Translations under genes and position numbers: made by a program
Notes under the pieces: generated by a model
What the model was told of the DNA's origin: nothing
The model's input: the letters and a program-made list of their open reading frames with translations, nothing else
The model's database searches: none
Source of the DNA: a virus
Taxonomy: Duplodnaviria > Caudoviricetes
Length of the DNA: 64,000 nt
Virus record (IMG/VR): IMGVR_UViG_3300032030_000028
Location: 46,372 to 110,371 of that record
Reading direction: 5' to 3' (one strand)
Shown: positions 7,393 to 54,742 of the stretch, piece by piece
How positions within the stretch are numbered: the first letter of the stretch is position 1
Layout: the number at the start of each line of letters is the position of its first letter

Positions 7393-7812
7393 ATGAAACA
7401 TATTAGTGAATCTATAATAGGAAGAAGGGGATCTTCAAATATTTCCGACTTCCGTTTTGAAAGCATAGTCCGAGGAAGTATAGTATATATTCCCGAACTC
7501 AAGCGAAACGATTCCGATAATCCTTATTTTTTGTGTGTAACTATCCGAGATTTATATGATTTGTGGCCGGATAGATACATAGATAGTAATTTACTTAGTT
7601 TAATTCATTATATTCTGCCTTCTAAATATAGTGTATATGACACTCCAATCGGAGAGGTAACCCTTCAAGGATATAAAAATCATTTTCCATTTTATGACGG
7701 TAATAAAATACCCATAAAAGCTATATACGGACCTATAGATCGGCATAAGTTAAACAGAATACTATCCTCAGAAGACACATTAATAGATTTTTTAAAAAAT
7801 TTACACCCCTAA
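7393..7812 (+). CDS. SIIGR-leader small protein
   Basis: Starts MKHISESIIGRRG. Confidence 0.75.
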   Translation: MKHISESIIGRRGSSNISDFRFESIVRGSIVYIPELKRNDSDNPYFLCVTIRDLYDLWPDRYIDSNLLSLIHYILPSKYSVYDTPIGEVTLQGYKNHFPFYDGNKIPIKAIYGPIDRHKLNRILSSEDTLIDFLKNLHP

Positions 7813-7815
7813 AAT

Positions 7816-8946
7816 ATGAATTTAAAAAATTATATCTTAGAATCTCAAGAACCGGAAAATCTTCCGGAAATTCTAGACTTTGTAACTAATATAATATCTC
7901 AATATACGGACTCTCTTTCCGATCTTTCCGATTATTCGGAATCCGGCTTCAAAAAATGGTGTGAAGACAATGGTATTGAAGATATAGATTGGGATGATGA
8001 TGCTAAAAAGAATTTTTATAAGTTATGTGATACTGCGCTTTCTAATATGAAAGATACGGATGATTCTGTAGAAGAATCTTTTAAGATCCCGGATCTTAAT
8101 ATTTTATTAGAAGCGGTCCCTAATAAGGATTCTCAAAATTCTCCGAAGTTTTCTAAAGAAGATGCTCAAAAATTATTAAAGCAAGCTAGAGATGAAGTTT
8201 GGTCGGGAATGAAAACATACGGCAAGAAAAAAGCCACTAACTGGTCTGGCGATCAACTTAACAAACTCACTGATAAGATAATGACGAGCATTAAAAATAA
8301 AAAAACATCATCCGCCGAAGAATATGCAAATGCTGGAATTTCCGCCGGAAAAGCATTTTCTAAAGTACCTGGCATCAGCAAGGCACTGGCCGGAATATCC
8401 GCTCTTTCGGGTCCTCAGGTCGCTCTGATCACCGTATCCGTAGCGGCGGTTGCCGCGGGAACTGTAGTGGTTGTCCGTCAGATAAAGAAAAAGAAAAACG
8501 AAAAGATCTTGACTGGGATAAAGGCTAAAGTTGAGGAATATAAGAAATCGGGAGATACTGAAAAAGCTAAGTTCTATGATGATTTTTACCAAAAACTAGA
8601 AAAAACCTGTTTAGACGATAAAGGAAAACTTCGCGTGAGTCCGGACCTTAACAAGCTTCCTGAAAAAGATCGCGATTTATTCTCAACTTTATATAATAGG
8701 ATTAAGAAAAATAAAAACATCATTAAAGCCGGAAAGGTTTCGGCACCTAAAGAACAAGTGGTGAAAGATAAAGATGGGAGCGAGATCCACGCCCGCCGGA
8801 AAAAAACCGGCATCGGCATGACCTATGTCAGAATGAAAAATGGCAAAGAAATCGGATACGCCACCAAAGATGAATTCCGGGCCGCAAAAAGCTCCAATGA
8901 ATCCTATACAGGATTATCGGATTATATTAATGAGTCAGTCGAATAA
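7816..8946 (+). CDS. Putative internal head/ejection protein (paralogue 3)
   Basis: Leader MNLKNYILES, TM-like VALITVSVAAVAAGTVVVV, shared C-terminal module, ends YINESVE. Confidence 0.6.
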   Translation: MNLKNYILESQEPENLPEILDFVTNIISQYTDSLSDLSDYSESGFKKWCEDNGIEDIDWDDDAKKNFYKLCDTALSNMKDTDDSVEESFKIPDLNILLEAVPNKDSQNSPKFSKEDAQKLLKQARDEVWSGMKTYGKKKATNWSGDQLNKLTDKIMTSIKNKKTSSAEEYANAGISAGKAFSKVPGISKALAGISALSGPQVALITVSVAAVAAGTVVVVRQIKKKKNEKILTGIKAKVEEYKKSGDTEKAKFYDDFYQKLEKTCLDDKGKLRVSPDLNKLPEKDRDLFSTLYNRIKKNKNIIKAGKVSAPKEQVVKDKDGSEIHARRKKTGIGMTYVRMKNGKEIGYATKDEFRAAKSSNESYTGLSDYINESVE

Positions 8947-8981
8947 AATCTATCATAAATCTTTCATATTCGTTATAAAAC

Positions 8982-9032
8982 AAGCGATCGTATCTTAGAT
9001 GACTAGTTATATCACTTAAGATGTGATCGCTT
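8982..9032. repeat. 51-bp intergenic palindromic element, copy 1
   Basis: AAGCGATC...TAGATGACTAGTTATAT...GATCGCTT between convergent genes. Confidence 0.85.
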
Positions 9033-9057
9033 GTTTTATATATGTTTATGAAAGAAA

Positions 9058-26068: not shown

Positions 26069-26093
26069 AAAAAAAGACCCGAAAAGGTCTTTT
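26069..26093. terminator. Terminator downstream of the minus-strand array
   Basis: AAAAGACC-CGAAAA-GGTCTTTT. Confidence 0.7.
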
Positions 26094-26457
26094 ATTTATC
26101 AATAAAGATAACTCGCCACCCCTGTATGTGAGTTATTGGTTGCCTTATGATTTTATATTTTTCATTTTCAAGTTGCGGAATAGCTTCTTCCTCAAAAGCA
26201 AATGTGTCTATAGGAACAGGTATTGTTTGTTTATAATATGAGCCATTAAATCCAAGATCTTTAATTTCGACATAACTTGGATTTGCATTTTTAGAGATTC
26301 TATACTCACCTTCATTATTTTGTACAATATATCTGCCGGAAAGCAACATAGCTATAATATCTTCAGGGTCGGTATACATAGATTTATTCATATCCCAGGT
26401 TAATCTATGACCGTGGGATCCTTTTCTTCCTATTATAGATTCGCTAATTGATTTCAT
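26092..26457 (-). CDS. SIIGR-leader small protein
   Basis: MKSISESIIGRKG. Confidence 0.75.
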   Translation of the reverse strand: MKSISESIIGRKGSHGHRLTWDMNKSMYTDPEDIIAMLLSGRYIVQNNEGEYRISKNANPSYVEIKDLGFNGSYYKQTIPVPIDTFAFEEEAIPQLENEKYKIIRQPITHIQGWRVIFIDK

Positions 26458-26496: not shown

Positions 26497-26916
26497 TTAT
26501 ATAATTTTGAATATTCTCAAATATCTTGTGACAATATCAGGAAATTCTATTTCATCTAAAAATTCAATACAATGTCGGAAATCCGATATATAATTACTGA
26601 TATTGGACATTATAATATCATATGCTTCTTGAGGATGTTTTATACTTATATCATTTTCAATTATAAACCAGAATATTTCACCGTGTCGTTGCAACTGATC
26701 CTTTCTAAAACAGGGACACCATTCTACACCGGGAGCCCAAAAAAATACGTGTTTATCATCATCCATAATACACCAATGGTTTGAAGACTCTTCAATATCT
26801 ATTGAATATGCTGTCCGATTAATAAACTTCCATTTGATCTCCCCAGGAATATTCCGGAATTTAACGGATACGGTATTCTCTTTCCTTCCTATTATAGATT
26901 CACTGATTGATTTCAT
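26497..26916 (-). CDS. SIIGR-leader small protein
   Basis: MKSISESIIGRKE. Confidence 0.75.
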   Translation of the reverse strand: MKSISESIIGRKENTVSVKFRNIPGEIKWKFINRTAYSIDIEESSNHWCIMDDDKHVFFWAPGVEWCPCFRKDQLQRHGEIFWFIIENDISIKHPQEAYDIIMSNISNYISDFRHCIEFLDEIEFPDIVTRYLRIFKII

Positions 26917-26919: not shown

Positions 26920-27336
26920 TTAAAATTGTATTTTACCCGAAAATAACCGAAAAAACCTATCCGGATGATGACCAAAATATGATCTAGTATATACCTGTTC
27001 TTGCAACCATTTCGTAGCGTCTTGGATGTCGCTAATATCTTTATCTTTGAATAAAAAAATATCACAATATAACATAACCCGAGTATGAATACTTTGAAGA
27101 TTTTGAAAAGTTCCTACGAATATATTCTCGGCTCCGTCAATATCCCCATCCAGAATAATATTTTCAATATTTTTATTGTGTTGTATTGAACTCCGTATCT
27201 CATCAACTCCGTCTTCGGTTTCGGGAATTATAATGAGTATATCCGATTTGTTTATTTGTCTCATTTGTCTCAATATCCTGGTTAAATAATTAGAACTACC
27301 CCTTCGTCCTATTATAGATTCTCTGATTGATTTCAT
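26920..27336 (-). CDS. SIIGR-leader small protein
   Basis: MKSIRESIIGRRG. Confidence 0.75.
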   Translation of the reverse strand: MKSIRESIIGRRGSSNYLTRILRQMRQINKSDILIIIPETEDGVDEIRSSIQHNKNIENIILDGDIDGAENIFVGTFQNLQSIHTRVMLYCDIFLFKDKDISDIQDATKWLQEQVYTRSYFGHHPDRFFRLFSGKIQF

Positions 27337-27746
27337 AAACTTTTAATATATTTTGAAATATCTGTAACTGTTACAATATTTGATTGATAAATATCATCCA
27401 CGGACTTCATCGATTGTATCCAATCTTTTAATTGGTTGATGTTTTTAAAATGCAATTTGTTTACAACACACAATTTACTATCCGGGTCCGGAAATTCTTT
27501 ACCCCGGTATTTGGGGTAGCCGGATTTAAAATATTTTTTTAATAATCGTATGTCGTCTGTACAAAATACATAATTATTATATCGATATCCATTATTATAT
27601 CGATATCCATGTTCGACCGCAATTTTACATTCCGTTGGAAATATTTCATTAGCTAAAACGTAATCGAATTTTATTGGATACAATATCCATATTTCCGAAG
27701 ACGGTACACCTTTTCTTCCTATTATAGATTCGCTAATTGATTTCAT
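27333..27746 (-). CDS. SIIGR-leader small protein
   Basis: MKSISESIIGRKG. Confidence 0.75.
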   Translation of the reverse strand: MKSISESIIGRKGVPSSEIWILYPIKFDYVLANEIFPTECKIAVEHGYRYNNGYRYNNYVFCTDDIRLLKKYFKSGYPKYRGKEFPDPDSKLCVVNKLHFKNINQLKDWIQSMKSVDDIYQSNIVTVTDISKYIKSL

Positions 27747-27750: not shown

Positions 27751-28170
27751 TTAAAATTGTCTGATTCTTAAATTATACTCTTTAAAGATATTATATAAAT
27801 CTTCTACGGTTTTCACTGATTCTAATTTTCGTGAAGAGAATTTGTATTTAGAATCTACAACTCGCATCGTTTGAGTAATTCTCGGAAAGTTGTTAAGTAT
27901 TTCTTCAACCAATCGAATATATTCAAATTTAAGAGGTTCATCTAAATATTTTAAAACACTTACCAACACATAATCAGATTTATCAAACCAATTTTGAGTT
28001 CTAGCTTTACGAATATGACAATGGTTTTTATCCATTACAATAAAATCTACAAATTCATCATCTCCATAACAAATAGTAATAAGGGATCCTGGTATATGTG
28101 CAAAAAAACGCGGATCATGCGGATCAATAGATAATCTTCGCCCTATTATAGATTCACTGATTGATTTCAT
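27751..28170 (-). CDS. SIIGR-leader small protein
   Basis: MKSISESIIGRRL. Confidence 0.75.
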   Translation of the reverse strand: MKSISESIIGRRLSIDPHDPRFFAHIPGSLITICYGDDEFVDFIVMDKNHCHIRKARTQNWFDKSDYVLVSVLKYLDEPLKFEYIRLVEEILNNFPRITQTMRVVDSKYKFSSRKLESVKTVEDLYNIFKEYNLRIRQF

Positions 28171-31144: not shown

Positions 31145-32947
31145 CTAATATAATAATTCTCGTTGGTTCATAAAATCACCCATTCTCAAATATTCGGATG
31201 CTTGTCTTATCAATCTTGGATCGCTCGAATTGGAAATATTCGGTCCCATAGCGGCATAATAGTTTACATATTTTTCATTAGTGATATTATTCCGGTCTTC
31301 AAAATCTTCTCGCAGATATTTGAATTGTAGAGATTCTTCAGCCAAGACCAGCTGAGCCTGAGACATGACCATATCATCATGTCCGAAACTGGCTTCATAG
31401 GAAGATCCGGATTGGGCGAAATTTTTTAGTTCTAATAGGAATTTGACATCATTGTTTTGAATGTATCCTTTCTCGAAAGCTGTCTTGAAGAGCTTACACA
31501 TCTTATTCTTGCTAGATTTAGTAATCCGAATTCCTAATTTGAACTTGTCGTAATTATCATCATTATAAAATTTGATAATATTGCTATACCAATGTTCTTT
31601 AAGTTTGTCTATCCATAATTCTCCATATAAGTTATATTCTATGGAAATCAGGAATCTTTCCGGGTGTAAATAATTTCTATAGAACTCAGATAATCTAGAA
31701 CAGCATTCTTTATCGTCTAATGTATTGGTCCGAAAGTATCCTATAGTCTTAGTAATAGGATCATTATTGTCGGACACTCCTATAAGTTGATTAAAGGTCT
31801 GCACCGTATAATCTCCACCTATGCCTTCGGAAATATCCGTAGTAAGTACCAAATATTGATTTCGGAGGTCATAAATATCCACATCCGGATCCCAATAAAA
31901 ATCATCATTGAAACATCCCAGCATATCCTTTACTATAAATTCTATAGTGGATTTGGCACAGTCATTGAGTTTCTTTTTAGAAATCAGAGCGTTGTTAGCG
32001 GAGCTGAACTCGGTCCCAAACTGCTCATTGAATGCATCTTCACTTCCTAGGTTGCCTATTTGCATTTGCTTCCAAGCATCATCTCGTTTATACCATATCT
32101 TCTTATCAGGGTCCCATTCCGGAACCTGATCCCAGTCTACCTTAAATGCCGCATATTCATTTTCTCCCTTCACGGCGGCGGTATAGATCTTAGAAAATAA
32201 CTCTAACCCGTTCTGAGTAGAGGTGATCATCAAGCGAGCACGTCCTGCGGAAATGGTAGGGAATATATTTTTATAGAAAGGCTCTTGAATATTAGGGGCG
32301 ATATGAGCAAACTCATCCAACAAGACACAGTGCAAGGTATAGCCGATACCCGAACGCGGTGTGGTGGCTTCGGCGATGATCATGCAGCCGTTATCCAGAG
32401 AGATCTTGCCTTCATTCCAGACCCGGATTCCCGGTTTCAGGAAATAAGGTAGCTCATAGAAGATATCTTTTGTTTTTTTCAAGATTTCTACGGCGGTATC
32501 TCTTTTGTTTCCTAATACCATTGCATTTTTGTCCGTATTGAATATTATATACCAGAGCATGAAAATAGCGGAGGTAGTCGTTTTTCCGGATTGTCTTGCT
32601 GAAAGCATGATACTCAAGCGGTTATTTTGCAAATGTTTTAAGTAATCTTCTTGATAATCTCTCAAAGATATGTTTTTAATTCCATCCGGAGTCATCAGCT
32701 TACAATAGGTGTTGGCAAAATATATGATGTCATTAGCACATTTCTTCCATTCTTTGATTTCCTCGGAAGTTCTTTTATATAGTAAATCGGGCTTTAAGAG
32801 TTTAGTATTTTTCTCATAAAACGGATTGACGGCCAGAGGCAAACCCTTATCGATGCCATCCAGTGCCTGCTTTATGATCTTGCTAGTCCACTGGACGGCT
32901 TCCGCCTTTTTGCCGCCCACGGTTTCTTTTATAGGATTAAAAGCCAT
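31145..32947 (-). CDS. terL: Terminase large subunit (T4 gp17-like)
   Basis: LRDYQ, Walker A ARQSGKTT, Walker B LLDEFAH, ITST, nuclease motifs DISEGIGGDY and GHDDMVM. Confidence 0.95.
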   Translation of the reverse strand: MAFNPIKETVGGKKAEAVQWTSKIIKQALDGIDKGLPLAVNPFYEKNTKLLKPDLLYKRTSEEIKEWKKCANDIIYFANTYCKLMTPDGIKNISLRDYQEDYLKHLQNNRLSIMLSARQSGKTTTSAIFMLWYIIFNTDKNAMVLGNKRDTAVEILKKTKDIFYELPYFLKPGIRVWNEGKISLDNGCMIIAEATTPRSGIGYTLHCVLLDEFAHIAPNIQEPFYKNIFPTISAGRARLMITSTQNGLELFSKIYTAAVKGENEYAAFKVDWDQVPEWDPDKKIWYKRDDAWKQMQIGNLGSEDAFNEQFGTEFSSANNALISKKKLNDCAKSTIEFIVKDMLGCFNDDFYWDPDVDIYDLRNQYLVLTTDISEGIGGDYTVQTFNQLIGVSDNNDPITKTIGYFRTNTLDDKECCSRLSEFYRNYLHPERFLISIEYNLYGELWIDKLKEHWYSNIIKFYNDDNYDKFKLGIRITKSSKNKMCKLFKTAFEKGYIQNNDVKFLLELKNFAQSGSSYEASFGHDDMVMSQAQLVLAEESLQFKYLREDFEDRNNITNEKYVNYYAAMGPNISNSSDPRLIRQASEYLRMGDFMNQRELLY

Positions 32948-35343: not shown

Positions 35344-35350
35344 ACCAAGT

Positions 35351-39667: not shown

Positions 39668-39694
39668 AAAGGACCTCATTGAGGTCCTTTTTTT
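39668..39694. terminator. Bidirectional terminator
   Basis: AAAGGACCTC-ATT-GAGGTCCTTTTTTT between convergent genes. Confidence 0.85.
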
Positions 39695-40178
39695 ATCGCG
39701 GGAATCTTACTATTTTATGATATTTTCCCCAAGCATTCGGTATCGGATTATATTTTTCCGACCGCTCGAACCCAAATTTCCCATACAGTTTATACAACAT
39801 ATCTAACGGTGTTTTAAACATATCATCCGGATCTCCGACAAGGACAACATTATTATCATCTGCCCATAACGTTAATTCATCTAGGACATTTGTGGCTATC
39901 CCCCGATTGCGAAGAGCGGGTTTTACTTGTATAGATACGAGCTCTACTACCATATTATTTGTGCCAAATGCTTTCTTTTGCGAATCGTCTCGTTTGAGTA
40001 TGAGTTCGCTTAAACCATATTCTTCGGACAATTCCGGATGGAGATTATCCTCCGGGTCCATGCTGATTATAAAAGTCTCTAAGTTTCTTGAAAAATACTT
40101 TTCAAGAGTTTTATATAGTCTCCCTGGTTTTGTTTTTTTAGCAGGTCGTCCTATTATGGATTCAATAATATTTTTCAT
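39693..40178 (-). CDS. GNAT acetyltransferase with SIIGR leader
   Basis: MKNIIESIIGR; VKPALRNRGIA; LYGKFGF. Confidence 0.8.
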   Translation of the reverse strand: MKNIIESIIGRPAKKTKPGRLYKTLEKYFSRNLETFIISMDPEDNLHPELSEEYGLSELILKRDDSQKKAFGTNNMVVELVSIQVKPALRNRGIATNVLDELTLWADDNNVVLVGDPDDMFKTPLDMLYKLYGKFGFERSEKYNPIPNAWGKYHKIVRFPR

Positions 40179-45443: not shown

Positions 45444-47282
45444 ATGGAAACTTATAACCCTTACGAATATAATATATTGCAAGAAGATTTACAAAACCCT
45501 GGAGTGATTTCGGAAGCCCGGGTACAGGATATACCCGGGATGAATGTAACTACTAAATTTAAACCCAAATATTCATCACAAGATATAAAAAACGCCGAAA
45601 AGAAATCTAAAAAGACTATAGCCAGATTTTTTTCTAACCTTTCCAGGTTAGGAATGAATTATGATGAACAAGTTATCAAGAATATGCGGGCTATTCCGGC
45701 GGACAAAAACCTGCTGCCGGAAGAAAGGCAGATCACATATCAAAACCTTTTCCAACAATTACAATCGGCATGGAAGCAAAAATCTAATTCTGATCAATCT
45801 TTTTATGAAAAAGACATTGCCATCAAGAGAGAAAATCTCCGGACTTTAGCGATGCAGCCAGAATTAGAAGATATTTTGGATACATTTTCCAATGAAGCTA
45901 TTGTATATGATTCTAATTTCGTTTATTTTGCCGAACCTTTTATTGATGATAAAGATTTAGTAGAATACAATAAAGATGTCCGCTCCAAAATCAACGATTG
46001 TGTCTCCGCTGGATTCAAACGATTTTATAAGATGCTCCGATGGAGAACCAAGGCGTGGGATGATTTTAAAAGATTTTTAGTGGAAGGTTGCCTAGCCTGG
46101 GAAATTGTATACGACTCTTTAGAGAAACCTACAAAAATTATAGGGCTCGTACCTTTAGATCCGGCCACCCTGACTAAAAAATTCGAGAATGATAAATGGT
46201 ATTGGGTTCAATATAAAGACGTTAAGGCTAAGGAAAGAAAACTATTAGATTCTCAAGTAATATATATAGTCTTTCAGGAAACAGAGGCCATATCGAGAAC
46301 CAGCTATCTGGAACGATTGGTCCGACCGTTTAATATATATAGAATTATCGAACAAGCTCAGATTATATTCTGCGTCACTAATGCTCAATATAAGATGAAA
46401 TTCACCATCCCGGTGAAAGGCATGAATCGGGCATTGGGATCTCAGACATTGAATTCGGCCATGCAGAGATATCGGGAAGATATCAAATTCATATCCGAAA
46501 GCGGCGAGCTGACTATTAATGGACAACCGCAGATGCCGTTCAATAAGGAATATTGGATGGCTGAATCGGAGAGCGGTACACCGGACATCGAAACCCTCGC
46601 TGGAGACTCTGGTCCGGATCTTCTGGATTCCGATTATCTGAAATTCTTCCGGAATCAGCTTTATAAAGTATCTAAAATTCCGTTGAATAGATTTGATGTG
46701 GATAGCGGAGAAGGCTGGTTTGGCACCGATGCCGAATCCTATGCTCGGAACGAGATAGACTTCGGAAGATATGTTACCAGAATGCGGAATATATTCTCTC
46801 AGATCATCTTGAAACCTATCTGGATCCAGCTATGTCTGGATATGCCCGAGATGATGGATTCTCCGGAATTCCAAGATTGCATCCAACTCCACTATCATTC
46901 TTATAATCTATTTGAAGAGATGATGGAAATCCAGCTCATGGATCGCCGTATCGAATCTATTAACAATATGAAAGAATTGCAAGATATGGACATGGAAGGC
47001 AATGAAGTGACTTTCTTTGCCTCTAAATTCCTGGTTCAGAAATATCTGCATCTCTCCGATGCGGATCTCAAGCTCAATGAGAAATATAAACAAGAAGAAG
47101 TAGAGAAATTCAACTTAGCCGGTGGTGAAAGACCACAGCAACCCGGACAATCCGGCCGTTATGGTGGTGGCGCTCCCGGTGGTTGGGAGAGTATGTTAGC
47201 TAAGATGAGCGATATGGAGCGAAGGATAGATGAAAAACTTAAAAAGTATAAAGATATTATCAGCGAATCTGAGGAGTTGTAA
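45444..47282 (+). CDS. Portal protein (T4 gp20-like)
   Basis: SYLERLVRPFN..IEQAQII, KEYWM..GTPDIETL, YKVSKIPLNRF, RNEIDFGRYVTRMRNIF. Confidence 0.92.
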   Translation: METYNPYEYNILQEDLQNPGVISEARVQDIPGMNVTTKFKPKYSSQDIKNAEKKSKKTIARFFSNLSRLGMNYDEQVIKNMRAIPADKNLLPEERQITYQNLFQQLQSAWKQKSNSDQSFYEKDIAIKRENLRTLAMQPELEDILDTFSNEAIVYDSNFVYFAEPFIDDKDLVEYNKDVRSKINDCVSAGFKRFYKMLRWRTKAWDDFKRFLVEGCLAWEIVYDSLEKPTKIIGLVPLDPATLTKKFENDKWYWVQYKDVKAKERKLLDSQVIYIVFQETEAISRTSYLERLVRPFNIYRIIEQAQIIFCVTNAQYKMKFTIPVKGMNRALGSQTLNSAMQRYREDIKFISESGELTINGQPQMPFNKEYWMAESESGTPDIETLAGDSGPDLLDSDYLKFFRNQLYKVSKIPLNRFDVDSGEGWFGTDAESYARNEIDFGRYVTRMRNIFSQIILKPIWIQLCLDMPEMMDSPEFQDCIQLHYHSYNLFEEMMEIQLMDRRIESINNMKELQDMDMEGNEVTFFASKFLVQKYLHLSDADLKLNEKYKQEEVEKFNLAGGERPQQPGQSGRYGGGAPGGWESMLAKMSDMERRIDEKLKKYKDIISESEEL

Positions 47283-47307
47283 TATTATTTTATTAAAAAA
47301 ATTAAAT

Positions 47308-47952
47308 ATGAAAAGTTTAACGGAATCTATTATAGGGAGACGAAGTGCGGAATTTCGAACACACAATGATCCTACATTAAAAAATCCGGCATTAGAATTT
47401 AATGCTATAGTTAAAGATATAGGAAATTGTCTTAAATCTCGTACTAATTGTTTATTAAATTGTGGGAATTATACAGCCACAGATGGTTTAGAAGATATAA
47501 TTTCGGCAATTCAAAAACGTATTCGAAAATATAAAAATTCTCGCCAATATTTTTATTTCGGAGATGGAGATACGGTGCCTTCCGGATCGCAAAAAGATCT
47601 ATTTGATTACATAACAGATTTTTATCAAAAATATCCTGGTGAACCTAAATATGGAACAACTCCTGGTGAAGATACAATTATTGTTATAGATATTCGTGGC
47701 AATATTAATTTACCTGATAAGACGCCGCAATGGATTGCTGATAAAAATATTACGGTTGTCGTAATTGGTGATAAAAATATACTTTTAGACCACAACTGGG
47801 ATGTTTTTTTAAGAACAGCTAATGAATATATAGAGGGCCCGTATTCATTTGGATATGTACATGATAAATATTTATTCAATAATCGCGGATATAGATTTGA
47901 TGCTGATGATAAAACGCAGAAAACAACACCTCCTATTGTATGGAAACACTAA
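47308..47952 (+). CDS. SIIGR-leader protein (214 aa)
   Basis: Probable start MKSLTESIIGRR at 47308. Confidence 0.75.
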   Translation: MKSLTESIIGRRSAEFRTHNDPTLKNPALEFNAIVKDIGNCLKSRTNCLLNCGNYTATDGLEDIISAIQKRIRKYKNSRQYFYFGDGDTVPSGSQKDLFDYITDFYQKYPGEPKYGTTPGEDTIIVIDIRGNINLPDKTPQWIADKNITVVVIGDKNILLDHNWDVFLRTANEYIEGPYSFGYVHDKYLFNNRGYRFDADDKTQKTTPPIVWKH

Positions 47953-47976
47953 TACTTTAATTGAGAATTTCAATAT

Positions 47977-48006
47977 AAAGGTCTTGCAAGAGACCTTTTA
48001 TTTTTT
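47977..48006 (+). terminator. Terminator (duplicated at 48915)
   Basis: AAAGGTCTT-GCAA-GAGACCTTTT. Confidence 0.75.
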
Positions 48007-48025
48007 ATATAATTATAATGAAAAT

Positions 48026-48467: not shown

Positions 48468-48490
48468 TATTATTTAAAAAAAATCAAAAT

Positions 48491-48883
48491 ATGAAAAGTT
48501 TAACGGAATCTATTAAGAATATCAAAGAAAGAAGAACTCCTTATCAAATTGATCAAAATGATCTAAAAAAGGTGGAAAAAGTCTTGAATGATAAAAAAAC
48601 CTGGAAAGAATTATCTAAATTATGCAACCTATCGGAAGAAATCACCAAGCTATATTGTACTAGTCGATTAGAAATGCTTTCGGATCCGGAATGGTATGAA
48701 AACTTCGAAGGCGTGCGCAATCTTAATATGGCTTACGTTATTTCTGAATTAGCCGATACCGATGATGAAGACTTCCAAATAGAATTAGATGATGAAAATA
48801 TTTCCGGATGGGAATGGCAAGATATTAGTAATTTGGTCACCGATGTTATGAACAGATGTCTCAAGGCTTTAAGATACTCTTAA
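48491..48883 (+). CDS. Small acidic protein with MKSLTESI leader
   Basis: First 24 nt identical to the 47308 gene, unrelated afterwards. Confidence 0.75.
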   Translation: MKSLTESIKNIKERRTPYQIDQNDLKKVEKVLNDKKTWKELSKLCNLSEEITKLYCTSRLEMLSDPEWYENFEGVRNLNMAYVISELADTDDEDFQIELDDENISGWEWQDISNLVTDVMNRCLKALRYS

Positions 48884-48914
48884 TAAATAAAATTCAATAT
48901 AAAAATTAACACAC

Positions 48915-48944
48915 AAAGGTCTCGCTAGAGACCTTTTATTTTTT
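48915..48944 (+). terminator. Terminator
   Basis: AAAGGTCTC-GCTA-GAGACCTTTT. Confidence 0.75.
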
Positions 48945-48964
48945 ATATGAACTACAGTAAAAAC

Positions 48965-49777: not shown

Positions 49778-49779
49778 CT

Positions 49780-50205
49780 ATGAAGACATTACAAGAATCT
49801 ATAATAGGCCGAAAAGGAAGCTATTCCGACATAGTTGAACCATTACATCCAAAAATTATATCAGCATATAGATCGGAACAATATAAATGCATATCTTTTG
49901 AAGATATAGATGAAACATATTTCTGGAATATGAAAGATGAAGCATTTGACATAGCTTCGGAAACATTTGGAATAAATGCTAATTTAATCTCCGGTATATG
50001 GGCTACAACTATATTGTCCTGTAAGACGTCCTATTTTCAGGCCGTATTATATAAGACCAATAAAAATGGAGACTGGTCTTTGATAATAATTAAGAAACCA
50101 AAAGGACATGGAGAGTACAAAGTCGTATTAAGAAAAAACGACATCCCAGATGATACTGTAGAATCCTATAGAGTTTTTAAGGAAATAAATATCGAAAAAC
50201 TATGA
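49780..50205 (+). CDS. SIIGR-leader small protein
   Basis: MKTLQESIIGRKG. Confidence 0.75.
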   Translation: MKTLQESIIGRKGSYSDIVEPLHPKIISAYRSEQYKCISFEDIDETYFWNMKDEAFDIASETFGINANLISGIWATTILSCKTSYFQAVLYKTNKNGDWSLIIIKKPKGHGEYKVVLRKNDIPDDTVESYRVFKEINIEKL

Positions 50206-50576
50206 AAACATTATATGAATCTATAATAGGCAGGAAAGGAACTCGGCATTTTACAGCAAATGATCTCCAAGATGGAGATATCATTATTTTGAGATTAGGT
50301 ATCACCATGCTCATACGTAACAGAGAAGCCCGTGTAAAAAATCCGGGAGGCCGTAGTGTTCTTTCTATGTCATTAAAAGATTTTATCAATCCGGATCTTA
50401 CCGCAAAGACGGATCGGGATGATGATATTATGAAAGTGTATAGAATAGAAAGTGACTTAGAACCTTCTTTAACGGATTTTGATTATTTTAGTTTTGAACT
50501 TCTCAACCTTATTGATAATATCCAACATAATAGGATTAATGGGACGAAGATACGACTGATGTTTGAAAGAAAATAA
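50202..50576 (+). CDS. SIIGR-leader protein, DL..GD/DIM.VYR subfamily
   Basis: MKTLYESIIGRKG; DLQDGDIIILR; DIMKVYR. Confidence 0.75.
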   Translation: MKTLYESIIGRKGTRHFTANDLQDGDIIILRLGITMLIRNREARVKNPGGRSVLSMSLKDFINPDLTAKTDRDDDIMKVYRIESDLEPSLTDFDYFSFELLNLIDNIQHNRINGTKIRLMFERK

Positions 50577-50605: not shown

Positions 50606-50953
50606 ATGAAGACACTGAGTGAATCTATAATCGGTCGAAAAGGAACTCAATTTTCCCCAAAAGACGATATCCAAATAGGAGACATATTGGTGCAGAGAAA
50701 CGGATATTATTGGTACTTGCAAGATGATATGATGCTTATACATCATAGTAAAGGTGGCGAAGATATGACAGTATATATCGATGATTTTTTGGATGCATAT
50801 GATAATATGCTTAGAGATATCAGAGGTGGTGAACACAAGAATTGCGATATCGTATGCATATATCGCTTGGGTAACAGTATTCGTAATCTTGATTATAAAA
50901 AAATTCAAAATTTTATCAACCACAACTCTCCCATATGGAAGGCACGTGATTAA
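50606..50953 (+). CDS. SIIGR-leader protein, same subfamily
   Basis: MKTLSESIIGRKG; DIQIGDILVQRNG; DIVCIYR. Confidence 0.75.
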   Translation: MKTLSESIIGRKGTQFSPKDDIQIGDILVQRNGYYWYLQDDMMLIHHSKGGEDMTVYIDDFLDAYDNMLRDIRGGEHKNCDIVCIYRLGNSIRNLDYKKIQNFINHNSPIWKARD

Positions 50954-50962: not shown

Positions 50963-51295
50963 ATGAAATCAATAAAAGAATCTATAATAGGAAAAAGAGG
51001 ATCTAAACCTTATAGCTTTTCAAAAGACGACCTCCGGATAAATGATATAGCAGTTACCCGTGATGGTACAATTATGATACTTAATAGCACTGGGCAATTT
51101 GAATATAAAAACGGATGTGCCGGTTTGAATTTTTTTAGTGACGATCTTTATTCTCTTCCGGCTACCATCGGACCACCGAGAAAAGATCGTAATCATGATA
51201 TTATGATGATTTACAGATGCCGGTTAAATTCTTTATATGAACCGGATATAGAAAAACAATTGAAAAAAGAAAAACCTATTTGGAGGCGTTCTTAA
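50963..51295 (+). CDS. SIIGR-leader protein, same subfamily
   Basis: MKSIKESIIGKRG; DLRINDIAVTRDG; DIMMIYR. Confidence 0.75.
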   Translation: MKSIKESIIGKRGSKPYSFSKDDLRINDIAVTRDGTIMILNSTGQFEYKNGCAGLNFFSDDLYSLPATIGPPRKDRNHDIMMIYRCRLNSLYEPDIEKQLKKEKPIWRRS

Positions 51296-51414: not shown

Positions 51415-51795
51415 ATGAAACATATACAAGAATCTATAATAGGAAGGAAATCATCCAAAATAGCAATATCTATATCGGATCTCCGGTATGGGGATATTGT
51501 AAAATTAAGAAATCCTTATATATTCGGGATTATAAACAAATCGGAAGATCGAATAATCTGTTATCTGAATGAAAAAGCTACATGTGTATTTATTTTTTTA
51601 GATTATTATTCGGATTTAACTTATATTAAAAACAAGGATTATGACGTTATGGAAGTATGGAGAGATCCATCCCATAAATTAGTTCGCGAACTGGATAAAA
51701 TATCGCGGTATGACGATTTATATTTGAAATTTATATCCGATCTTAAAAATAAAATCTCGGAATACAATATGGTATTAAGGTATGAAAGACAATAA
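51415..51795 (+). CDS. SIIGR-leader protein, same subfamily
   Basis: Probable start MKHIQESIIGRKS at 51415; DLRYGDIVKLRN; DVMEVWR. Confidence 0.75.
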   Translation: MKHIQESIIGRKSSKIAISISDLRYGDIVKLRNPYIFGIINKSEDRIICYLNEKATCVFIFLDYYSDLTYIKNKDYDVMEVWRDPSHKLVRELDKISRYDDLYLKFISDLKNKISEYNMVLRYERQ

Positions 51796-51798: not shown

Positions 51799-51824
51799 AA
51801 AAGGACCACACGGTCCTTTTTTTT
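51799..51824. terminator. Bidirectional terminator
   Basis: AAAAGGACC-ACAC-GGTCCTTTTTTTT between convergent arrays. Confidence 0.8.
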
Positions 51825-52326
51825 ATTTATATTGGAAAGATTCCAACCTTCTTAGCCATCCTTTAAGATAGAATTTTGCCCCATTGCAGTTAGCGAGATA
51901 TGCCCTTCTCTGCCGTATTAATTTATCAAACAATTCCGGAGAAGATTGTGAATTTAATGCAGCCAGTGTTCCGGACCCGAAAACTCCATCCATAGATACG
52001 CCTAAGGATTTCTGTATTAATCTTACATATCCTAATCCAGACATCCAGACCATATCAAAAACTAGGTCCGCCATGGATTGGTTTTTTATATCATCTCCTT
52101 TGATCTTGCTCCAGAATAATGTTCTTGCAATATCTAGTATATCGGCTTCCGTGAGTTTTTTAAGATCTTCAATGGTGGGTACGGGTTTGCCTTTCTTGCG
52201 GCAATATGTCTTATAGGTATTCAAGGTAACTCCTCTCCAGGTGGGTCCGCCGGAGTCTTTGGAGTCGTTAGCATATCCACCTTCCCATCCTAAGGTTTTG
52301 GATAATGATTTTTTCAGATCGGCCAT
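51823..52326 (-). CDS. Endolysin, glycoside hydrolase family 108 with peptidoglycan-binding tail
   Basis: EGGYANDSKDSGGPTWRGVT; C-terminal FYLKGWLRRL. Confidence 0.9.
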   Translation of the reverse strand: MADLKKSLSKTLGWEGGYANDSKDSGGPTWRGVTLNTYKTYCRKKGKPVPTIEDLKKLTEADILDIARTLFWSKIKGDDIKNQSMADLVFDMVWMSGLGYVRLIQKSLGVSMDGVFGSGTLAALNSQSSPELFDKLIRQRRAYLANCNGAKFYLKGWLRRLESFQYK

Positions 52327-52331: not shown

Positions 52332-52697
52332 TTACTTTCTTTCAAATACGGTATTTATGCCCCAATGAATGATTCCTTTCAGATTGCGAGCCACAAATGA
52401 TTCAAGATCCGAGCTGACATATTGTTCTTCTGGATATATGACATCCGAGTCTGTAAATCTATATATAGCCATAATATCCCATATTTTATTACGTTTATGT
52501 GTTAAATTTATAGGATTATAACTATCTATATCTATACCTTCATCCGGACCGGTGAATGTATTTTTACCATGAATCATATCTTTATAAACTACTTTATATT
52601 GCCCGTTTCTCAATACAACTACATCTTCGTCTTGTAATTCAATATGTGGTATTACCGTTCCTCTCCGTCCTATTATAGATTCACTAATATGTTTCAT
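52332..52697 (-). CDS. SIIGR-leader protein, same subfamily
   Basis: MKHISESIIGRRG; ELQDEDVVVLRNG; DIMAIYR. Confidence 0.75.
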   Translation of the reverse strand: MKHISESIIGRRGTVIPHIELQDEDVVVLRNGQYKVVYKDMIHGKNTFTGPDEGIDIDSYNPINLTHKRNKIWDIMAIYRFTDSDVIYPEEQYVSSDLESFVARNLKGIIHWGINTVFERK

Positions 52698-52701: not shown

Positions 52702-53116
52702 TTAATTATAATATCCCCGATAATATATACGTAAAAATCTATTATATTTTTTTGTTCTAACTAGATTATTGAGGAAATCTTCCGCCTTCGCGGTATTATC
52801 GGCCATCTGTAATTCTTTTACGATCCTACCTGACGGATCCCGATATACTTCCATAATATCCATATGGGTATCATTGGAGCATGCCATATTGTCTTCATAT
52901 AGAGCATATTTTCCTATTAGTGATTTGAACTCATATCCTCCACCGTTCATATAATTTACATATTGTTCTGGGCCATCAAAGTAATCAAGATATTTTCCTA
53001 CAATACCTACGTTTTTATTTCGAAATATTACCACATCCCCCTTCTTTTAGATCATATTTATTTTCTATTGTCGGACGGAATTTTTTTCCTATTATAGATT
53101 CTTGCAATGGCTTCAT
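52702..53116 (-). pseudogene. Frameshifted SIIGK-leader gene
   Basis: ATG 53116 gives MKPLQESIIGKK..DLKEG. Length 415 nt (3n+1). Removing one G from the G5 run at 53037-53041 restores DLKEGDVVIFRN. Confidence 0.8.
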
Positions 53117-53130
53117 ATTTGTGTTTGTGT

Positions 53131-53607
53131 TTATTTTCTTAAAAATAACTTTGAAAAGTTCACCATAGAGAAAAATGTGCTGGGTTCAATAGCCCATTTG
53201 ATTTTCTTATCTTTATGAGCTCGGACATTTCTCAAATAACCGGTAGTAATATTTTCTATGTTTTTATGAACTGTCCTATTGGCAATTTCACCGCTGTGAA
53301 TTACAATCCAATATTGGGTCATTATTGAGTCTTCATTAGCTCCGGACATAATGAGATTTATGAGTTTTTCTGTTTGTGGATATTTTTCTAAATCTAATTT
53401 GTTAAGTTTTTCTATGCTTTTTTTCTGATTAGCATCCAAACTATTAATAAGTTCTTTGGCAGCGGCTCTTTTTCCTTTATCCCGGATAAGTTGCACTATC
53501 GCGGATATACCGTTTGGTATGCAAAAACATGCCGCTAAAAACAATGAAGCCATCATGCCTGAACCAATTTCTATGGATTCATTGATATAACTACCTAAGT
53601 TTTTCAT
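53131..53607 (-). CDS. Membrane-anchored protein with MKNLGSYINES leader
   Basis: Leader nearly identical to that of 5760, followed by a hydrophobic helix. Confidence 0.65.
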   Translation of the reverse strand: MKNLGSYINESIEIGSGMMASLFLAACFCIPNGISAIVQLIRDKGKRAAAKELINSLDANQKKSIEKLNKLDLEKYPQTEKLINLIMSGANEDSIMTQYWIVIHSGEIANRTVHKNIENITTGYLRNVRAHKDKKIKWAIEPSTFFSMVNFSKLFLRK

Positions 53608-54011
53608 TTCATTTTCATTTTTTCTTGTAAATCACTCCAAAGATCCCTAAAACTATTATAATTAGTGCTATTTAGTACACCCCTATATACTTCTATTATA
53701 TCGTCATCAGGATACTCTCGGTTTTGAAGATTCATATCATATTTATCAACTTGATGTAATCCTAAACTCCACATAGCTCCAGGGAAGACACCCTCCGACA
53801 TAATATAAGCTTCAAGGGTGACTTGATTGATCATCTGACGCCGGATCGCGGGTGGACATTGTTTGTAATCTAAGCATACATAACACCTGCCATCCCTTGT
53901 CTTTAAGACATTTAAATGCTTTAGATCCGTTATTTTAGGGTTAGATAATAGTTTTCCTCTGAAATAACCAGTTCCTTTCCGTCCTATTATAGATTCTTGT
54001 AATGTCTTCAT
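53604..54011 (-). CDS. SIIGR-leader protein, same subfamily
   Basis: MKTLQESIIGRKG; DLKHLNVLKTRDG; DIIEVYR. Confidence 0.75.
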   Translation of the reverse strand: MKTLQESIIGRKGTGYFRGKLLSNPKITDLKHLNVLKTRDGRCYVCLDYKQCPPAIRRQMINQVTLEAYIMSEGVFPGAMWSLGLHQVDKYDMNLQNREYPDDDIIEVYRGVLNSTNYNSFRDLWSDLQEKMKMK

Positions 54012-54013
54012 AA

Positions 54014-54361
54014 TTACTCCTTAGATCTGTTTTGATTCCGGATAATCTCTCTCATCAACGCCTTATCGTCATTCAATGATTTTTCCCGATCTATAGCCTG
54101 TCGATATCCGGACTGGCATAATTTTAATGAATCTTCTAAAACAATGATTTTTATGCCCAATGAATCTATAATCATCTTTTGAGAAATTATCACGGAATCT
54201 TTAGAAGTAATGGTTTCCGTATATTGTACATCTTTCCACTGATCCTTAGTCTTATGAGAGCAACGAGAACATGTTTGTAAACATATGACACATAATAGAA
54301 TAATTATGACTATTTTGGAGTTATCTAATATTTTTTTGAAAAATTCTTTTATTTTTTCCAT
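54014..54361 (-). CDS. Membrane-anchored coiled-coil protein (spanin/lipoprotein-like)
   Basis: IVIIILLCVICLQTC followed by a coiled coil; no leader. Confidence 0.4.
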   Translation of the reverse strand: MEKIKEFFKKILDNSKIVIIILLCVICLQTCSRCSHKTKDQWKDVQYTETITSKDSVIISQKMIIDSLGIKIIVLEDSLKLCQSGYRQAIDREKSLNDDKALMREIIRNQNRSKE

Positions 54362-54742
54362 TTAAACTATAAATTTTATTTTTTCTTGCAAGATATCCCA
54401 AATTGTTTGAAAATCTGGATAATCTTCATTATTTGCAAATATACCCCTATATACAGATATTATATCATATTCCTTTGAACTTCTACATGTAAGGTTTTGA
54501 TAATAGTTATCTAAACCTAATGGAGATATAATGGGCACGATGGGATCAATTCTATAAGCATCGAAATCATCAATTCTAATTTGTTGTTCACGAAGCCAAT
54601 CTGGATCTATACATATATAAATATCACTATTTGCACACTTCACCACATCTAGGTGTTGCAAATCTTTTAGTTTAGGATTAGATAACTTATACCCGACTCC
54701 CGATGATTTTCTCCCTATTATAGATTCTTGTATATGCTTCAT
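54362..54742 (-). CDS. SIIGR-leader protein, close paralogue of 53604
   Basis: Probable start MKHIQESIIGRKS at 54742; LSNPK..DL.HL and DII.VYRG shared. Confidence 0.75.
   Translation of the reverse strand: MKHIQESIIGRKSSGVGYKLSNPKLKDLQHLDVVKCANSDIYICIDPDWLREQQIRIDDFDAYRIDPIVPIISPLGLDNYYQNLTCRSSKEYDIISVYRGIFANNEDYPDFQTIWDILQEKIKFIV

What the first reader, a model, noticed from the sequence alone, without database searches (positions are those of the whole stretch)
7393..54742. 17 diverse small genes share the leader MK-x-[IL]-x-E|SIIG[RK]: candidate capsid-loaded effector system
Seen: genes starting at 7393, 26457, 26916, 27336, 27746, 28170, 40178, 47308, 49780, 50202, 50606, 50963, 51415, 52697, 53116, 54011 and 54742 all start with this 11-13 aa leader, then diverge. 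Most are 110-160 aa, and they sit among late structural genes. Gly and Arg codons vary synonymously (GGA/GGC/GGG/GGT; AGA/AGG/CGA/CGG), so the peptide itself is selected. Known: T4 IPII/IPIII use an N-terminal capsid-targeting sequence (MKTYQEFIAE) removed by gp21 protease after [IL]-x-E, and IPI* inhibits the GmrSD nuclease. Inference: a much larger repertoire of proteins is packaged in the head and injected with the DNA (anti-defence or takeover). Unlike T4, all would keep a common mature N-terminus SIIG[RK], possibly a second signal for ejection or DNA binding.
Basis: partly seen in the sequence, partly recalled or inferred. Interest (0 to 1): 0.92.

Follow-up and report, generated by a model that had tools for sequence, protein, structure and literature searches.

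The report
Shared head-loading tag on phage proteins
An uncultured, roughly 240-kb relative of phage T4 starts at least 60 mostly unrelated small proteins with the same 13-residue tag; the tag looks like an altered, hugely multiplied version of T4's "load into the head, then clip" signal, but no experiment has shown packaging or cutting.

Summary
Observation confirmed. All 17 ORFs start MK-x-[IL]-x-E-S-I-I-G-[RK]. Sixteen are intact and one (53116) is frameshifted. The 110-kb contig holds 30 such genes. A non-overlapping sister contig from the same sample holds at least 36 more, eight of them directly upstream of a gp23-type capsid gene. The bodies fall into one family of about 20-28 members, a few small families and about 27 singletons. 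One body is GNAT-like.

The capsid-targeting reading is supported only by comparison:
- The lineage has a T4-type portal, gp21-type prohead protease and gp23-type capsid protein.
- Relatives carry 10-residue leaders (MK-x-L-x-E-Y-I-x-E|S/G/A) that closely resemble T4's MKTYQEFIAE.
- In the 13-residue tag, [IL]4 and E6 never vary and residue 5 varies freely, which fits the T4 [IL]-x-E cut motif.

New points:
- A complete relative uses MKxLxE-SLFDKD[LI], and 29 further genes there start directly MS[ILV]FD. The half after the Glu therefore looks like a module of its own.
- Leader variants follow the gene array, not the body family.
- Twelve leader bases are also constrained as DNA.

Packaging, cleavage, expression timing and any anti-defence role are untested, and the cargo is not basic. 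Follow-up reports of this scan describe similar leader families on other DNA (T4-like phages). Verdict: new variant of a known kind.

The parts
7393..7812 (+). Leader gene, 139 aa, MKHISESIIGRRG; the body is a singleton
   Evidence: Only 6 close homologues in 5.8e9 proteins, one of them (P0161) without the leader. AF2 model unusable, pLDDT 45.
26092..26457 (-). Leader gene, 121 aa, MKSISESIIGRKG; body singleton. Last gene of a 5-gene array downstream of TerL.
   Evidence: A late-promoter-like ATAAATAA lies at -17.
26497..26916 (-). Leader gene, 139 aa, MKSISESIIGRKE; body family f3
26920..27336 (-). Leader gene, 138 aa, MKSIRESIIGRRG; body family f2
27333..27746 (-). Leader gene, 137 aa, MKSISESIIGRKG; body family f4
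27751..28170 (-). Leader gene, 139 aa, MKSISESIIGRRL; body family f1. First gene of the array, 8 nt after the epimerase gene.
39693..40178 (-). Leader gene, 161 aa, MKNIIESIIGRPA; the body is GNAT acetyltransferase-like
   Evidence: Pfam GNAT below cut-off, E 8e-4. Atlas features 0.95 and TM 0.55-0.65 to GNAT clusters over residues ~20-161.
47308..47952 (+). Leader gene, 214 aa, MKSLTESIIGRRS; lies 26 nt after the portal gene. Absent from the related contig G002.
   Evidence: The Atlas gives only weak P-loop leads.
49780..50205 (+). Leader gene, 141 aa, MKTLQESIIGRKG; body singleton. Starts 3 nt after the head-tail adaptor gene.
50202..50576 (+). Leader gene, 124 aa, MKTLYESIIGRKG; main body family f0
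   Evidence: In the AF2 model residues 1-17 are an unstructured coil, followed by an alpha/beta domain with no PDB match.
50606..50953 (+). Leader gene, 115 aa, family f0
50963..51295 (+). Leader gene, 110 aa, MKSIKESIIGKRG, family f0
51415..51795 (+). Leader gene, 126 aa, MKHIQESIIGRKS; probably family f0 (weak link)
52332..52697 (-). Leader gene, 121 aa, family f0; lies directly upstream of the endolysin gene on the same strand
52702..53116 (-). Frameshifted leader gene. A 33-aa stub (53116-53015) is followed, in another frame, by an f0-like body down to 52702.
53604..54011 (-). Leader gene, 135 aa, family f0
54362..54742 (-). Leader gene, 126 aa, family f0
5312..5698 (+). 128-aa gene with a degenerate leader, MKHISESIRNVK; the body is GNAT-like
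   Evidence: Acetyltransf_7, E 1.2e-5, 26.1 bits against a cut-off of 27
48491..48883 (+). 130-aa gene with a degenerate leader, MKSLTESIKNIK; conserved next to the portal gene in G002
5760..7316 (+). 518-aa gene with a 10-residue T4-like leader, MKNIGSYIQE|S
   Evidence: No family match.
7816..8946 (+). 376-aa gene with the leader MNLKNYILE|S
53131..53607 (-). 158-aa gene with a 10-residue leader, MKNLGSYINE|S
54750..55226 (-). 158-aa gene with a 10-residue leader, MKSLLGYIKE|S
55278..56666 (-). Sigma-70-family factor, 462 aa, with a 10-residue T4-like leader, MKLFTEQILE|S. The G005 orthologue starts MKLFTEIIAE|S.
45444..47282 (+). T4-type portal protein (gp20 family); it places the phage in the T4 head-assembly lineage
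   Evidence: PF07230, E 1.7e-67
31145..32947 (-). Large terminase subunit; first gene of the minus-strand gene run that contains the 26092-28170 leader array
51823..52326 (-). Endolysin; last gene of the minus-strand run that starts with the sigma factor and holds four leader genes

Best explanation
The 13-residue N-terminus is a derived, two-part version of the T4 capsid-targeting sequence (CTS).

Part 1 is MK-x-[IL]-x-E. It is the N-terminal half of the ancestral 10-residue leader MK-x-L-x-E-Y-I-x-E that relatives still carry. I infer that it ends at an [IL]-x-E site cut by the lineage's gp21-type prohead protease.

Part 2 is S-I-I-G-[RK]-[RK]-G. It would stay on the mature protein. It is specific to each lineage: the 240-kb relative uses S-L-F-D-K-D-[LI]. 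It most likely docks the protein to a phage-encoded partner in the assembling head core, or serves a second step such as exit or a first action in the next cell.

The tag is portable. It sits on at least about 30 sequence-unrelated bodies, including GNAT-like enzymes. Its variants follow the gene array, not the body family, so new cargo appears to be captured behind existing leader copies.

Shown here:
- the motif and its numbers;
- selection at the peptide level;
- the modular history of leader and body;
- the T4-type head genes in the lineage;
- the graded series of leader forms across relatives.

Inferred, not shown: loading into the prohead, cutting after Glu6, delivery with the DNA, and any effector role.
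For: (1) Scale and specificity. There are 17 leader genes in the window, 30 in contig G000 and at least 36 in the non-overlapping sister contig G001 from the same sample. The profile of one body family plus leader finds only 33 proteins among 5.8e9.

(2) The peptide is selected.
- Arg11 is written with AGA, AGG, CGA and CGG, and Gly10 with four codons.
- In G004, Ser7 is AGY where G000 has TCT, and Leu8 uses six codons.

(3) The pattern matches [IL]-x-E. Position 4 is only I or L, position 5 takes 8 different residues, and position 6 is E in 30 of 30 genes. The same holds in G004. Atypical copies keep it: internal ...YINE|SIIGRKG at residue 369 of a 513-aa protein, MKHISKSITE|SIIGKKG, and ...PVCE|SIIGRKN.

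(4) The machinery is present.
- The window has a T4-type portal.
- G001, G003 and G004 have a Peptidase_S77 protease above the curated cut-off and a Gp23 capsid protein.
- The capsid proteins keep [IV]-x-E|[GA] at residue 41.
- The protease carries a conserved G-x-I-x-E|S-x-D-D junction after its catalytic domain.

(5) Descent from a T4-like CTS.
- Relatives with 48% or more portal identity carry MK-x-[LI]-x-[EQD]-[YF]-[IL]-x-E|[SGA] near the portal; those at about 42% carry none there.
- G005 has about 16 such genes and no 13-residue family.
- T4 IPII and IPIII start MKTYQEFIAE|A. MKTLQESIIG shares 6 of those 10 positions.
- In T4 the first 10 residues suffice for head loading. Residues 8 and 10 govern processing. 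The IP cargo is diverse behind a conserved CTS (PMC9026906, PMC3012670).

(6) Modularity.
- The bodies form one large family, a few small ones and about 27 singletons by jackhmmer and hhalign.
- One array has five MKSIS/RE leaders on five different body groups (four families and a singleton).
- Leader codons 3-5 are more alike within an array despite unrelated bodies (0.57 against 0.44, permutation p<0.0005), and are not more alike within a body family.
- A 74%-identical orthologue of one body lacks the leader.
- Leader genes are gained or lost between G000 and G002.

(7) Accessibility. In the AF2 model, residues 1-17 are an unstructured tail in front of a folded domain.

(8) Context. The window arrays lie in tightly spaced same-strand runs with TerL, portal, adaptor, baseplate hub and endolysin genes. 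In G001, eight leader genes lie just upstream of the capsid gene and two just upstream of the protease gene.
Against: - There is no direct evidence of virion presence, cleavage or injection.
- About 60-80 tagged genes, roughly a fifth of all genes, is far beyond any known set of T4-type internal proteins.
- Some arrays in G001 lie next to replication and nucleotide-metabolism genes.
- Only 5 of 62 leader genes have their own late-promoter-like ATAAAT[TA]A motif, and none of 18 class A genes in G004 does. Late expression is therefore not shown.
- The bodies are not basic (median pI 5.4-6.3), unlike T4 IPII and IPIII.
- The strongest conservation lies after the proposed cut site. In G004, 29 genes carry that half alone (MS[ILV]FD...) with no pre-sequence. 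The conserved function may therefore not need the protease or the head at all.
- If the leader is aligned with the T4 CTS from the N-terminus, position 10 is Gly (or Asp in G004), not Glu. In T4, Asp10 blocks processing (PMC9026906). Cutting after Glu6 is an inference from the motif alone.
- [IL]-x-E is a short, common motif.
Confidence: 0.55

Rival explanations
1. The conserved part is a short N-terminal docking motif (S-[IL]-[IF]-...) that acts in the infected cell and has nothing to do with the head. It would bind one common phage or host partner, for example a hub enzyme, a chaperone or a degradation or stabilisation factor. MK-x-L-x-E would be only an optional cap.
For: - In G004, 29 genes start MS[ILV]F[DNS]x[DN]I with no pre-sequence. 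They lie in long same-strand arrays at the genome ends, much like early-gene arrays.
- Conservation is strongest after Glu6.
- The motif changes as a block between lineages (SIIGRKG against SLFDKD[LI]), as expected when many ligands track one partner.
- Tagged genes are numerous and also lie among replication genes.
- Few have a late-promoter-like motif of their own.
Against: - It does not explain why [IL]4 and E6 never vary while position 5 is free, or why internal and extended copies keep [LIV]-x-E directly before the Ser.
- It does not explain the graded series from T4-like 10-residue leaders in relatives.
- It does not explain the placement of arrays directly beside the portal, capsid and protease genes.
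- No partner has been identified.
Confidence: 0.2
2. This is an ordinary paralogous multigene family. The N-terminus is simply the best-conserved piece, and the bodies have diverged beyond recognition. There is no portable tag.
For: - Sizes are uniform (median 136 aa).
- Six to eight of the 17 window genes, and about 20-28 genes overall, do form one family.
- The genes lie in tandem arrays.
Against: - hhalign finds no link between most groups once the leader is trimmed.
- One cargo is GNAT-like, a fold different from the f0 model.
- Leader variants follow the array, not the body family.
- An orthologous body exists without the leader.
- The tag also occurs inside a 513-aa protein.
Confidence: 0.1
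3. The primary function lies in the nucleic acid. The 12-14 bases GAATCTATAATAGG, at a fixed distance from the ATG, would be a translation or regulatory operator, or a short homology tract for cassette exchange. The peptide would be largely a by-product.
For: - Codons 6-9 are almost invariant in more than 100 copies on four contigs, including G002 at about 76% nucleotide identity, while neighbouring codons vary freely.
- The 12-mer occurs almost only in the leader register.
- Neighbouring leaders are homogenised.
Against: - G004 keeps the same peptide positions with other codons: Ser is AGY and Leu uses six codons.
- Arg11 and Gly10 are conserved as residues across many codons.
- A nucleic-acid element would not need [IL]-x-E with a free middle residue.
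- It is therefore better seen as a second layer on top of a selected peptide.
Confidence: 0.08
4. The tag is the recognition sequence of a modifying enzyme, a maturase serving many substrates as in RiPP-like systems. An earlier follow-up of this scan proposed this for a radical-SAM-linked tag in phage RB43.
For: - The general architecture fits: a conserved leader with variable bodies in tandem arrays.
- A radical-SAM gene lies next to one array in G001.
Against: - The only radical-SAM genes in G000, G001 and G004 best match QueE and NrdG. The NrdG-like match is strong (E 3.7e-39). Both score below NCBIfam's equivalog cut-offs. No SPASM-type maturase was found.
- The bodies are folded domains of 100-200 aa, not short core peptides.
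Confidence: 0.04

Closest known systems
Phage T4 capsid-targeting sequence (CTS) of internal proteins IPI, IPII and IPIII, and the polymorphic ip loci of T-even phages
   Same: - It is a short N-terminal leader on otherwise unrelated small proteins.
- It starts MKT-, has a hydrophobic residue at position 4 and ends in [IL]-x-E.
- A gp21-type protease and a gp20/gp23-type head are present in the lineage.
- Cargo genes are gained and lost between relatives.
- In T4, ipII and ipIII lie next to the endolysin gene e, and one window array likewise ends at the endolysin gene.
- The idea that the CTS lets T4-like phages load varied proteins is already in print (PMC9026906, PMC3012670).
   Different: - There are 60-80 tagged genes per genome instead of 3-5.
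- The leader has two parts: a 6-residue pre-sequence and a conserved 7-residue stretch that would remain on the mature protein.
- Position 10 is Gly or Asp, not Glu.
- The cargo is not basic.
- A relative has a leaderless class that carries only the second part.
- The leader's DNA is homogenised within arrays.
Head (ejection / inner body) proteins of phiKZ, 201phi2-1 and SPN3US, processed by a gp21-related protease
   Same: - Tens of different proteins sit in the head.
- Cleavage is C-terminal to Glu at a small-x-E motif.
- Paralogous families share identical N-terminal propeptide starts. In SPN3US, gp53 and gp54 share 15 residues (PMC5694885).
   Different: - Those propeptides are long (often over 100 residues) and are not one uniform tag.
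- Those phages are not in the T4 portal/capsid sequence family to the same degree.
- No common mature N-terminus has been described.
Phage P1 Dar anti-restriction proteins loaded into the head
   Same: Defence-countering proteins are packaged in the head and injected, and loading depends on N-terminal regions and on head-assembly partners (PMC9024508, PMC12810830).
   Different: There are only a few proteins, loading is hierarchical, and there is no shared short tag or tag family.
Encapsulin cargo-loading peptides
   Same: A short, portable peptide directs unrelated enzymes into an HK97-fold shell. This rests on my own knowledge, not on a tool result.
   Different: These peptides are usually C-terminal, are not cleaved, and serve a bacterial compartment, not a virion. 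This is only an analogy of mechanism.

Membership tests
T4-type capsid-targeting sequence (CTS) cargo | The phage encodes a gp21-type (Peptidase_S77) prohead protease and a T4-type portal and capsid | tested here: met
   The portal is in the window. The protease and capsid genes are absent from this 49%-complete contig. They are present on sister contigs G001 and G003, which carry the same leader, and in relative G004.
T4-type capsid-targeting sequence (CTS) cargo | A leader at the extreme N-terminus, about 10 residues long, ending in [IL]-x-E | tested here: met
   [IL]4-x-E6 is invariant in 30 of 30 genes with a free position 5. The pre-sequence is 6 residues, not 10. True 10-residue forms occur on other genes of the window and in relatives.
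T4-type capsid-targeting sequence (CTS) cargo | Sequence likeness to the T4 CTS, MKTYQEFIAE | tested here: inconclusive
   MKTLQESIIG shares 6 of 10 positions and MKLFTEIIAE shares 6 of 10. The peptides are too short for a statistical test of homology. The graded series across relatives supports common descent.
T4-type capsid-targeting sequence (CTS) cargo | The same leader sits on unrelated bodies | tested here: met
T4-type capsid-targeting sequence (CTS) cargo | The leader is sufficient to load a protein into the prohead | not testable with these tools
   This needs a packaging assay.
T4-type capsid-targeting sequence (CTS) cargo | The leader is removed by the prohead protease, giving a mature N-terminus after Glu | not testable with these tools
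   This needs N-terminomics or an in vitro cleavage test. The only indirect points are the unstructured leader in the AF2 model and the [IV]-x-E|S/G/A sites in the protease and capsid proteins.
T4-type capsid-targeting sequence (CTS) cargo | The cargo is expressed while heads assemble (late) | tested here: inconclusive
   The operon context with TerL, portal, adaptor and endolysin genes favours late expression. However, few leader genes have their own late-promoter-like motif, and some arrays lie beside replication genes.
Radical-SAM/SPASM maturase with tagged substrates | A dedicated maturase gene co-occurs with the tagged genes | tested here: not met
   Only QueE-like and NrdG-like radical-SAM genes are present.

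The most novel reading that the evidence does not exclude
The half of the tag that follows the Glu is an autonomous N-terminal address. This half is SIIGRKG here and SLFDKD[LI] in the 240-kb relative. It changes as a block together with one phage-encoded receptor. It is shared by two delivery routes:
- proteins loaded into the head and clipped after Glu6, which would arrive with the DNA;
- proteins made afresh that start MS[ILV]F..., which would expose the same end after Met removal.

On this reading about a fifth of the genes of a 240-kb phage feed one tag-based sorting system. New cargo would be recruited by recombination at a 12-14-base conserved tract inside the leader.
Probability: 0.2. 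Interest if true: 0.82.

Novelty: new variant of a known kind. Interest (0 to 1): 0.62.

Why it matters
If the tag does load proteins into the head, this lineage of uncultured gut or rumen-type jumbo phages carries by far the largest known repertoire of T4-style injected proteins. That would mean dozens of unknown folds likely to act in the first seconds of infection, a natural catalogue of candidate takeover and counter-defence factors.

The two-part tag would also add to the T4 rule. The part that stays on the protein seems to matter as much as the part that is removed, and it changes as a block between related phages.

On the practical side, the T4 CTS is already used to load foreign proteins into phage heads. 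A short, naturally very permissive tag with known cargo limits would be useful for that work.

If the tag turns out to be a cytoplasmic docking motif instead, it would mark an unknown hub that a fifth of the phage's genes address.

Tried and rejected
- Nucleotide searches of the phage collection with two window pieces found nothing.
- The nearest cultured relatives by portal are Sphingomonas phage PAU, Tenacibaculum phage PTm1 and the Lak phages, at only 31-40% identity. I did not scan them for leaders.
- PHROGs and Pfam gave no family for 10 leader proteins, apart from sub-threshold GNAT matches.
- The AF2 model of the main body family (pLDDT 75) has no PDB match by Foldseek. Its only matches are uncharacterised viral proteins.
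- AF2 of 7393-7812 with 6 sequences failed (pLDDT 45), so that fold was not searched.
- The Atlas look-up of 47308-47952 gave only weak P-loop leads.
- The contig that encodes the leaderless orthologue P0161 could not be read.
- Promoter analysis: ATAAAT[TA]A lies upstream of the capsid, protease, sheath-like and hub genes but is not enriched before leader genes. Timing remains open.
- The basic-cargo idea (DNA-binding internal proteins) was rejected for the bodies.
- The radical-SAM tag idea, taken from an earlier finding of this scan, was checked and not supported.
- Full-text searches for the motif strings found no paper.

Full report
**Observation**

Seven are on the + strand and ten on the - strand. 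Each encodes M-K-x-[IL]-x-E-S-I-I-G-[RK].

Sixteen ORFs are intact: 110-161 aa, plus one of 214 aa. The one at 53116 stops after 33 codons and continues in another frame as a body of the main family. The break lies in a G5 run.

The window is the right-hand 64 kb of a 110-kb IMG/VR contig, G000, estimated 49% complete. That contig holds 30 such genes. The degenerate DNA pattern hits 29 times there and 0 times when reversed. A slightly longer, stricter form of the pattern hits once in 596 Gb of prokaryotic genomes.

**What the phage is**

GC content is 36%. No Shine-Dalgarno motif is visible upstream of the starts.

The window encodes:
- a T4-type portal (PF07230, E 1.7e-67);
- a large terminase, a sigma-70-family factor, a head-tail adaptor, an endolysin and a RuvC-like resolvase;
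- a collagen-repeat tail fibre.

No gp21 or gp23 homologue lies on this half-genome.

The leader pattern occurs on only three other viral contigs, all from the same metagenome:
- G001 (130.5 kb) does not overlap G000. It carries at least 36 more leader genes. It also carries a Peptidase_S77 protease fused to a repeat-rich scaffold-like tail, and a Gp23-type capsid protein.
- G003 (55 kb) carries the same leader, a Peptidase_S77 protease and a Gp23-type capsid gene.
- G002 is a relative of G000 at about 76% nucleotide identity.

G000 and G001 together add up to 241 kb. That is the size of G004, a complete relative with 63% portal identity.

The nearest cultured phages by portal are Sphingomonas phage PAU, Tenacibaculum phage PTm1 and the Lak phages, at 31-40% identity.

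**The peptide is under selection, and so is a piece of its DNA**

Arg11 is written AGA, AGG, CGA or CGG, and Gly10 with all four codons. In G004 the equivalent Ser is AGY where G000 has TCT, and Leu8 uses six codons. The residues themselves are therefore selected.

Codons 6-9, in contrast, are GAA TCT ATA ATA in about 95% of more than 100 copies on four contigs. TCT is used 27 times in 29 against a genome-wide share of 0.30 (P about 2e-12). This holds even in G002. The 12-mer occurs almost only in the leader register. This second constraint is specific to the lineage and remains unexplained.

**Bodies**

I trimmed the leader and compared the bodies with BLASTP, jackhmmer and hhalign. In G000 and G001 they give:
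- one family of about 20-28 members;
- four or five small families;
- about 27 singletons.

Six to eight of the window's 17 genes belong to the large family.

An AF2 model of 50202-50573 (pLDDT 75) shows residues 1-17 as an unstructured tail in front of a small alpha/beta domain. The domain has no PDB match.

The 161-aa protein at 39693-40178 is GNAT-like. So is the 128-aa protein at 5312-5698, which has a degenerate leader.

The bodies are not basic. The family is very rare in public data.

**Leader and body have separate histories**

- The array at 26092-28170 has five MKSIS/RE leaders on five different body groups, namely four families and a singleton.
- Across G000 and G001, leader codons 3-5 are more alike between neighbours in one array with unrelated bodies than between arrays (0.57 against 0.44, permutation p<0.0005). 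Sharing a body family in different arrays gives no excess (0.45).
- A 74%-identical orthologue of the 7393 body has another N-terminus.
- Leader genes differ between G000 and G002, and the endolysin segment is inverted.

**Link to T4**

T4 IPII and IPIII start MKTYQEFIAE|A, as read from NC_000866.

Published work on T4 reports the following (PMC9026906):
- these 10 residues suffice for head loading;
- residues 4 and 7 matter for targeting, and residues 8 and 10 for processing;
- Asp10 blocks processing but not targeting.

T-even internal proteins are diverse behind a conserved CTS (PMC3012670).

In this clade, relatives with 48% or more portal identity carry MK-x-[LI]-x-[EQD]-[YF]-[IL]-x-E|[SGA] on genes near the portal. 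Those at about 42% carry none there.

The leader forms differ between genomes:

| Genome | Portal identity to the window | 10-residue T4-like leaders | 13-residue leader family |
|---|---|---|---|
| G005 | 67% | about 16 genes | none |
| G004 | 63% | about a dozen | about 20 genes MK[ST]LxE-SLFD[KD][DN][LI], plus 29 genes MS[ILV]F[DNS]x[DN]I with no pre-sequence |
| G000 + G001 | own / sister contig | a few, on larger proteins including the sigma factor | at least 64 genes with SIIG |

Some G004 proteins combine a 10-residue leader with the second module, for example MKSLNEILNE|GLFDSDL.

Many 10-residue leaders contain two [LI]-x-E sites, at positions 4-6 and 8-10. The 6-residue pre-sequence looks like the first of these.

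In the 13-residue tag, [IL]4 and E6 never vary and position 5 is free. Internal and extended copies keep [LIV]-x-E directly before the Ser. The capsid proteins keep [IV]-x-E|[GA] at residue 41, and the protease keeps G-x-I-x-E|S-x-D-D after its catalytic domain.

**Reading**

The best explanation (0.55) is a derived, two-part, massively expanded CTS:
- a short pre-sequence ending at a protease site;
- a lineage-specific stretch that stays on the mature protein.

The main rival (0.2) is that the second stretch is a cytoplasmic docking motif and the head plays no part. The leaderless class in G004, the number of tagged genes, their partial placement among replication genes and the lack of own late-promoter-like motifs speak for that rival.

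The plain paralogue family, a purely nucleic-acid function and a maturase tag are less likely.

Nothing here shows packaging, cleavage, timing or an anti-defence role.

**Standing**

The principle of a conserved CTS on diverse cargo in T4-like phages is already published. New here are:
- the scale;
- the two-part tag with a conserved retained end;
- the block change of that end between relatives;
- the leaderless sister class;
- array-wise homogenisation of the leader;
- the DNA-level constraint.

Follow-up reports of this scan describe comparable leader families in other T4-like phages, marine and Bacteroidota ones. The phenomenon is therefore recurrent in this scan's own material. I found no paper that names these motifs.

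Noticed in passing
window 55278-56666 (-): A sigma-70-family factor (regions 2 and 4 at weak Pfam scores, PHROG E 7e-20) starts MKLFTEQILE|S. Its G005 orthologue starts MKLFTEIIAE|S, which shares 6 of 10 positions with the T4 CTS. It is a candidate head-loaded sigma factor.
   Followed up: partly
window 52702-53116 (-): This leader gene is broken by a frameshift in a G5 run. The downstream frame encodes a normal body of the main family. It is either a pseudogene or an assembly error.
   Followed up: partly
G004 (L125-L136): 985-8175, 33123-34397, 234457-237528 and others: 29 genes start MS[ILV]F[DNS]x[DN]I, which is the second half of that phage's leader with Met in place of Glu. Most lie in long same-strand arrays that join across the ends of the record.
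   Followed up: partly
G000:C1:4646-6187 (-), outside the window: A 513-aa protein has an internal ...GLSEYINE|SIIGRKG at residue 369. It is either a fusion of two genes or a two-part precursor with an internal cut site.
   Followed up: no
G001 36102-37517 (L119:16102-17514): The prohead protease is fused to a long tail with five tandem EKWIVEEYSPE[IV] repeats, likely a scaffold part. More than 2400 relatives of this fused form exist in metagenomes.
   Followed up: partly
G001 115481-128159 (L123-L124): A second N-terminal family: six to seven genes start MK[VI]QIR[QHK][GS][VT]FETNSS. It is unrelated to the leader studied here.
   Followed up: no
G001 89202-90107 (L122:9202-10104): A QueE-like radical-SAM gene hints at 7-deazaguanine DNA modification. 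An NrdG-like gene lies at G000 26114-26599.
   Followed up: partly
window 47213-49817 compared with L031: The interval after the portal gene differs between G000 and G002. G000 has an extra 214-aa leader gene and a partial repeat of the adaptor region. The endolysin-leader segment is inverted between the two.
   Followed up: partly
G000:C1 about 27800-37300, outside the window: A stretch of about 9 kb holds only short spurious ORFs. Other first-reader notes call it a tRNA and structured-RNA island.
   Followed up: no
window 61319-64000 (+): A collagen-repeat tail fibre gene (Pfam Collagen, E 4.5e-108) runs off the end of the window.
   Followed up: no
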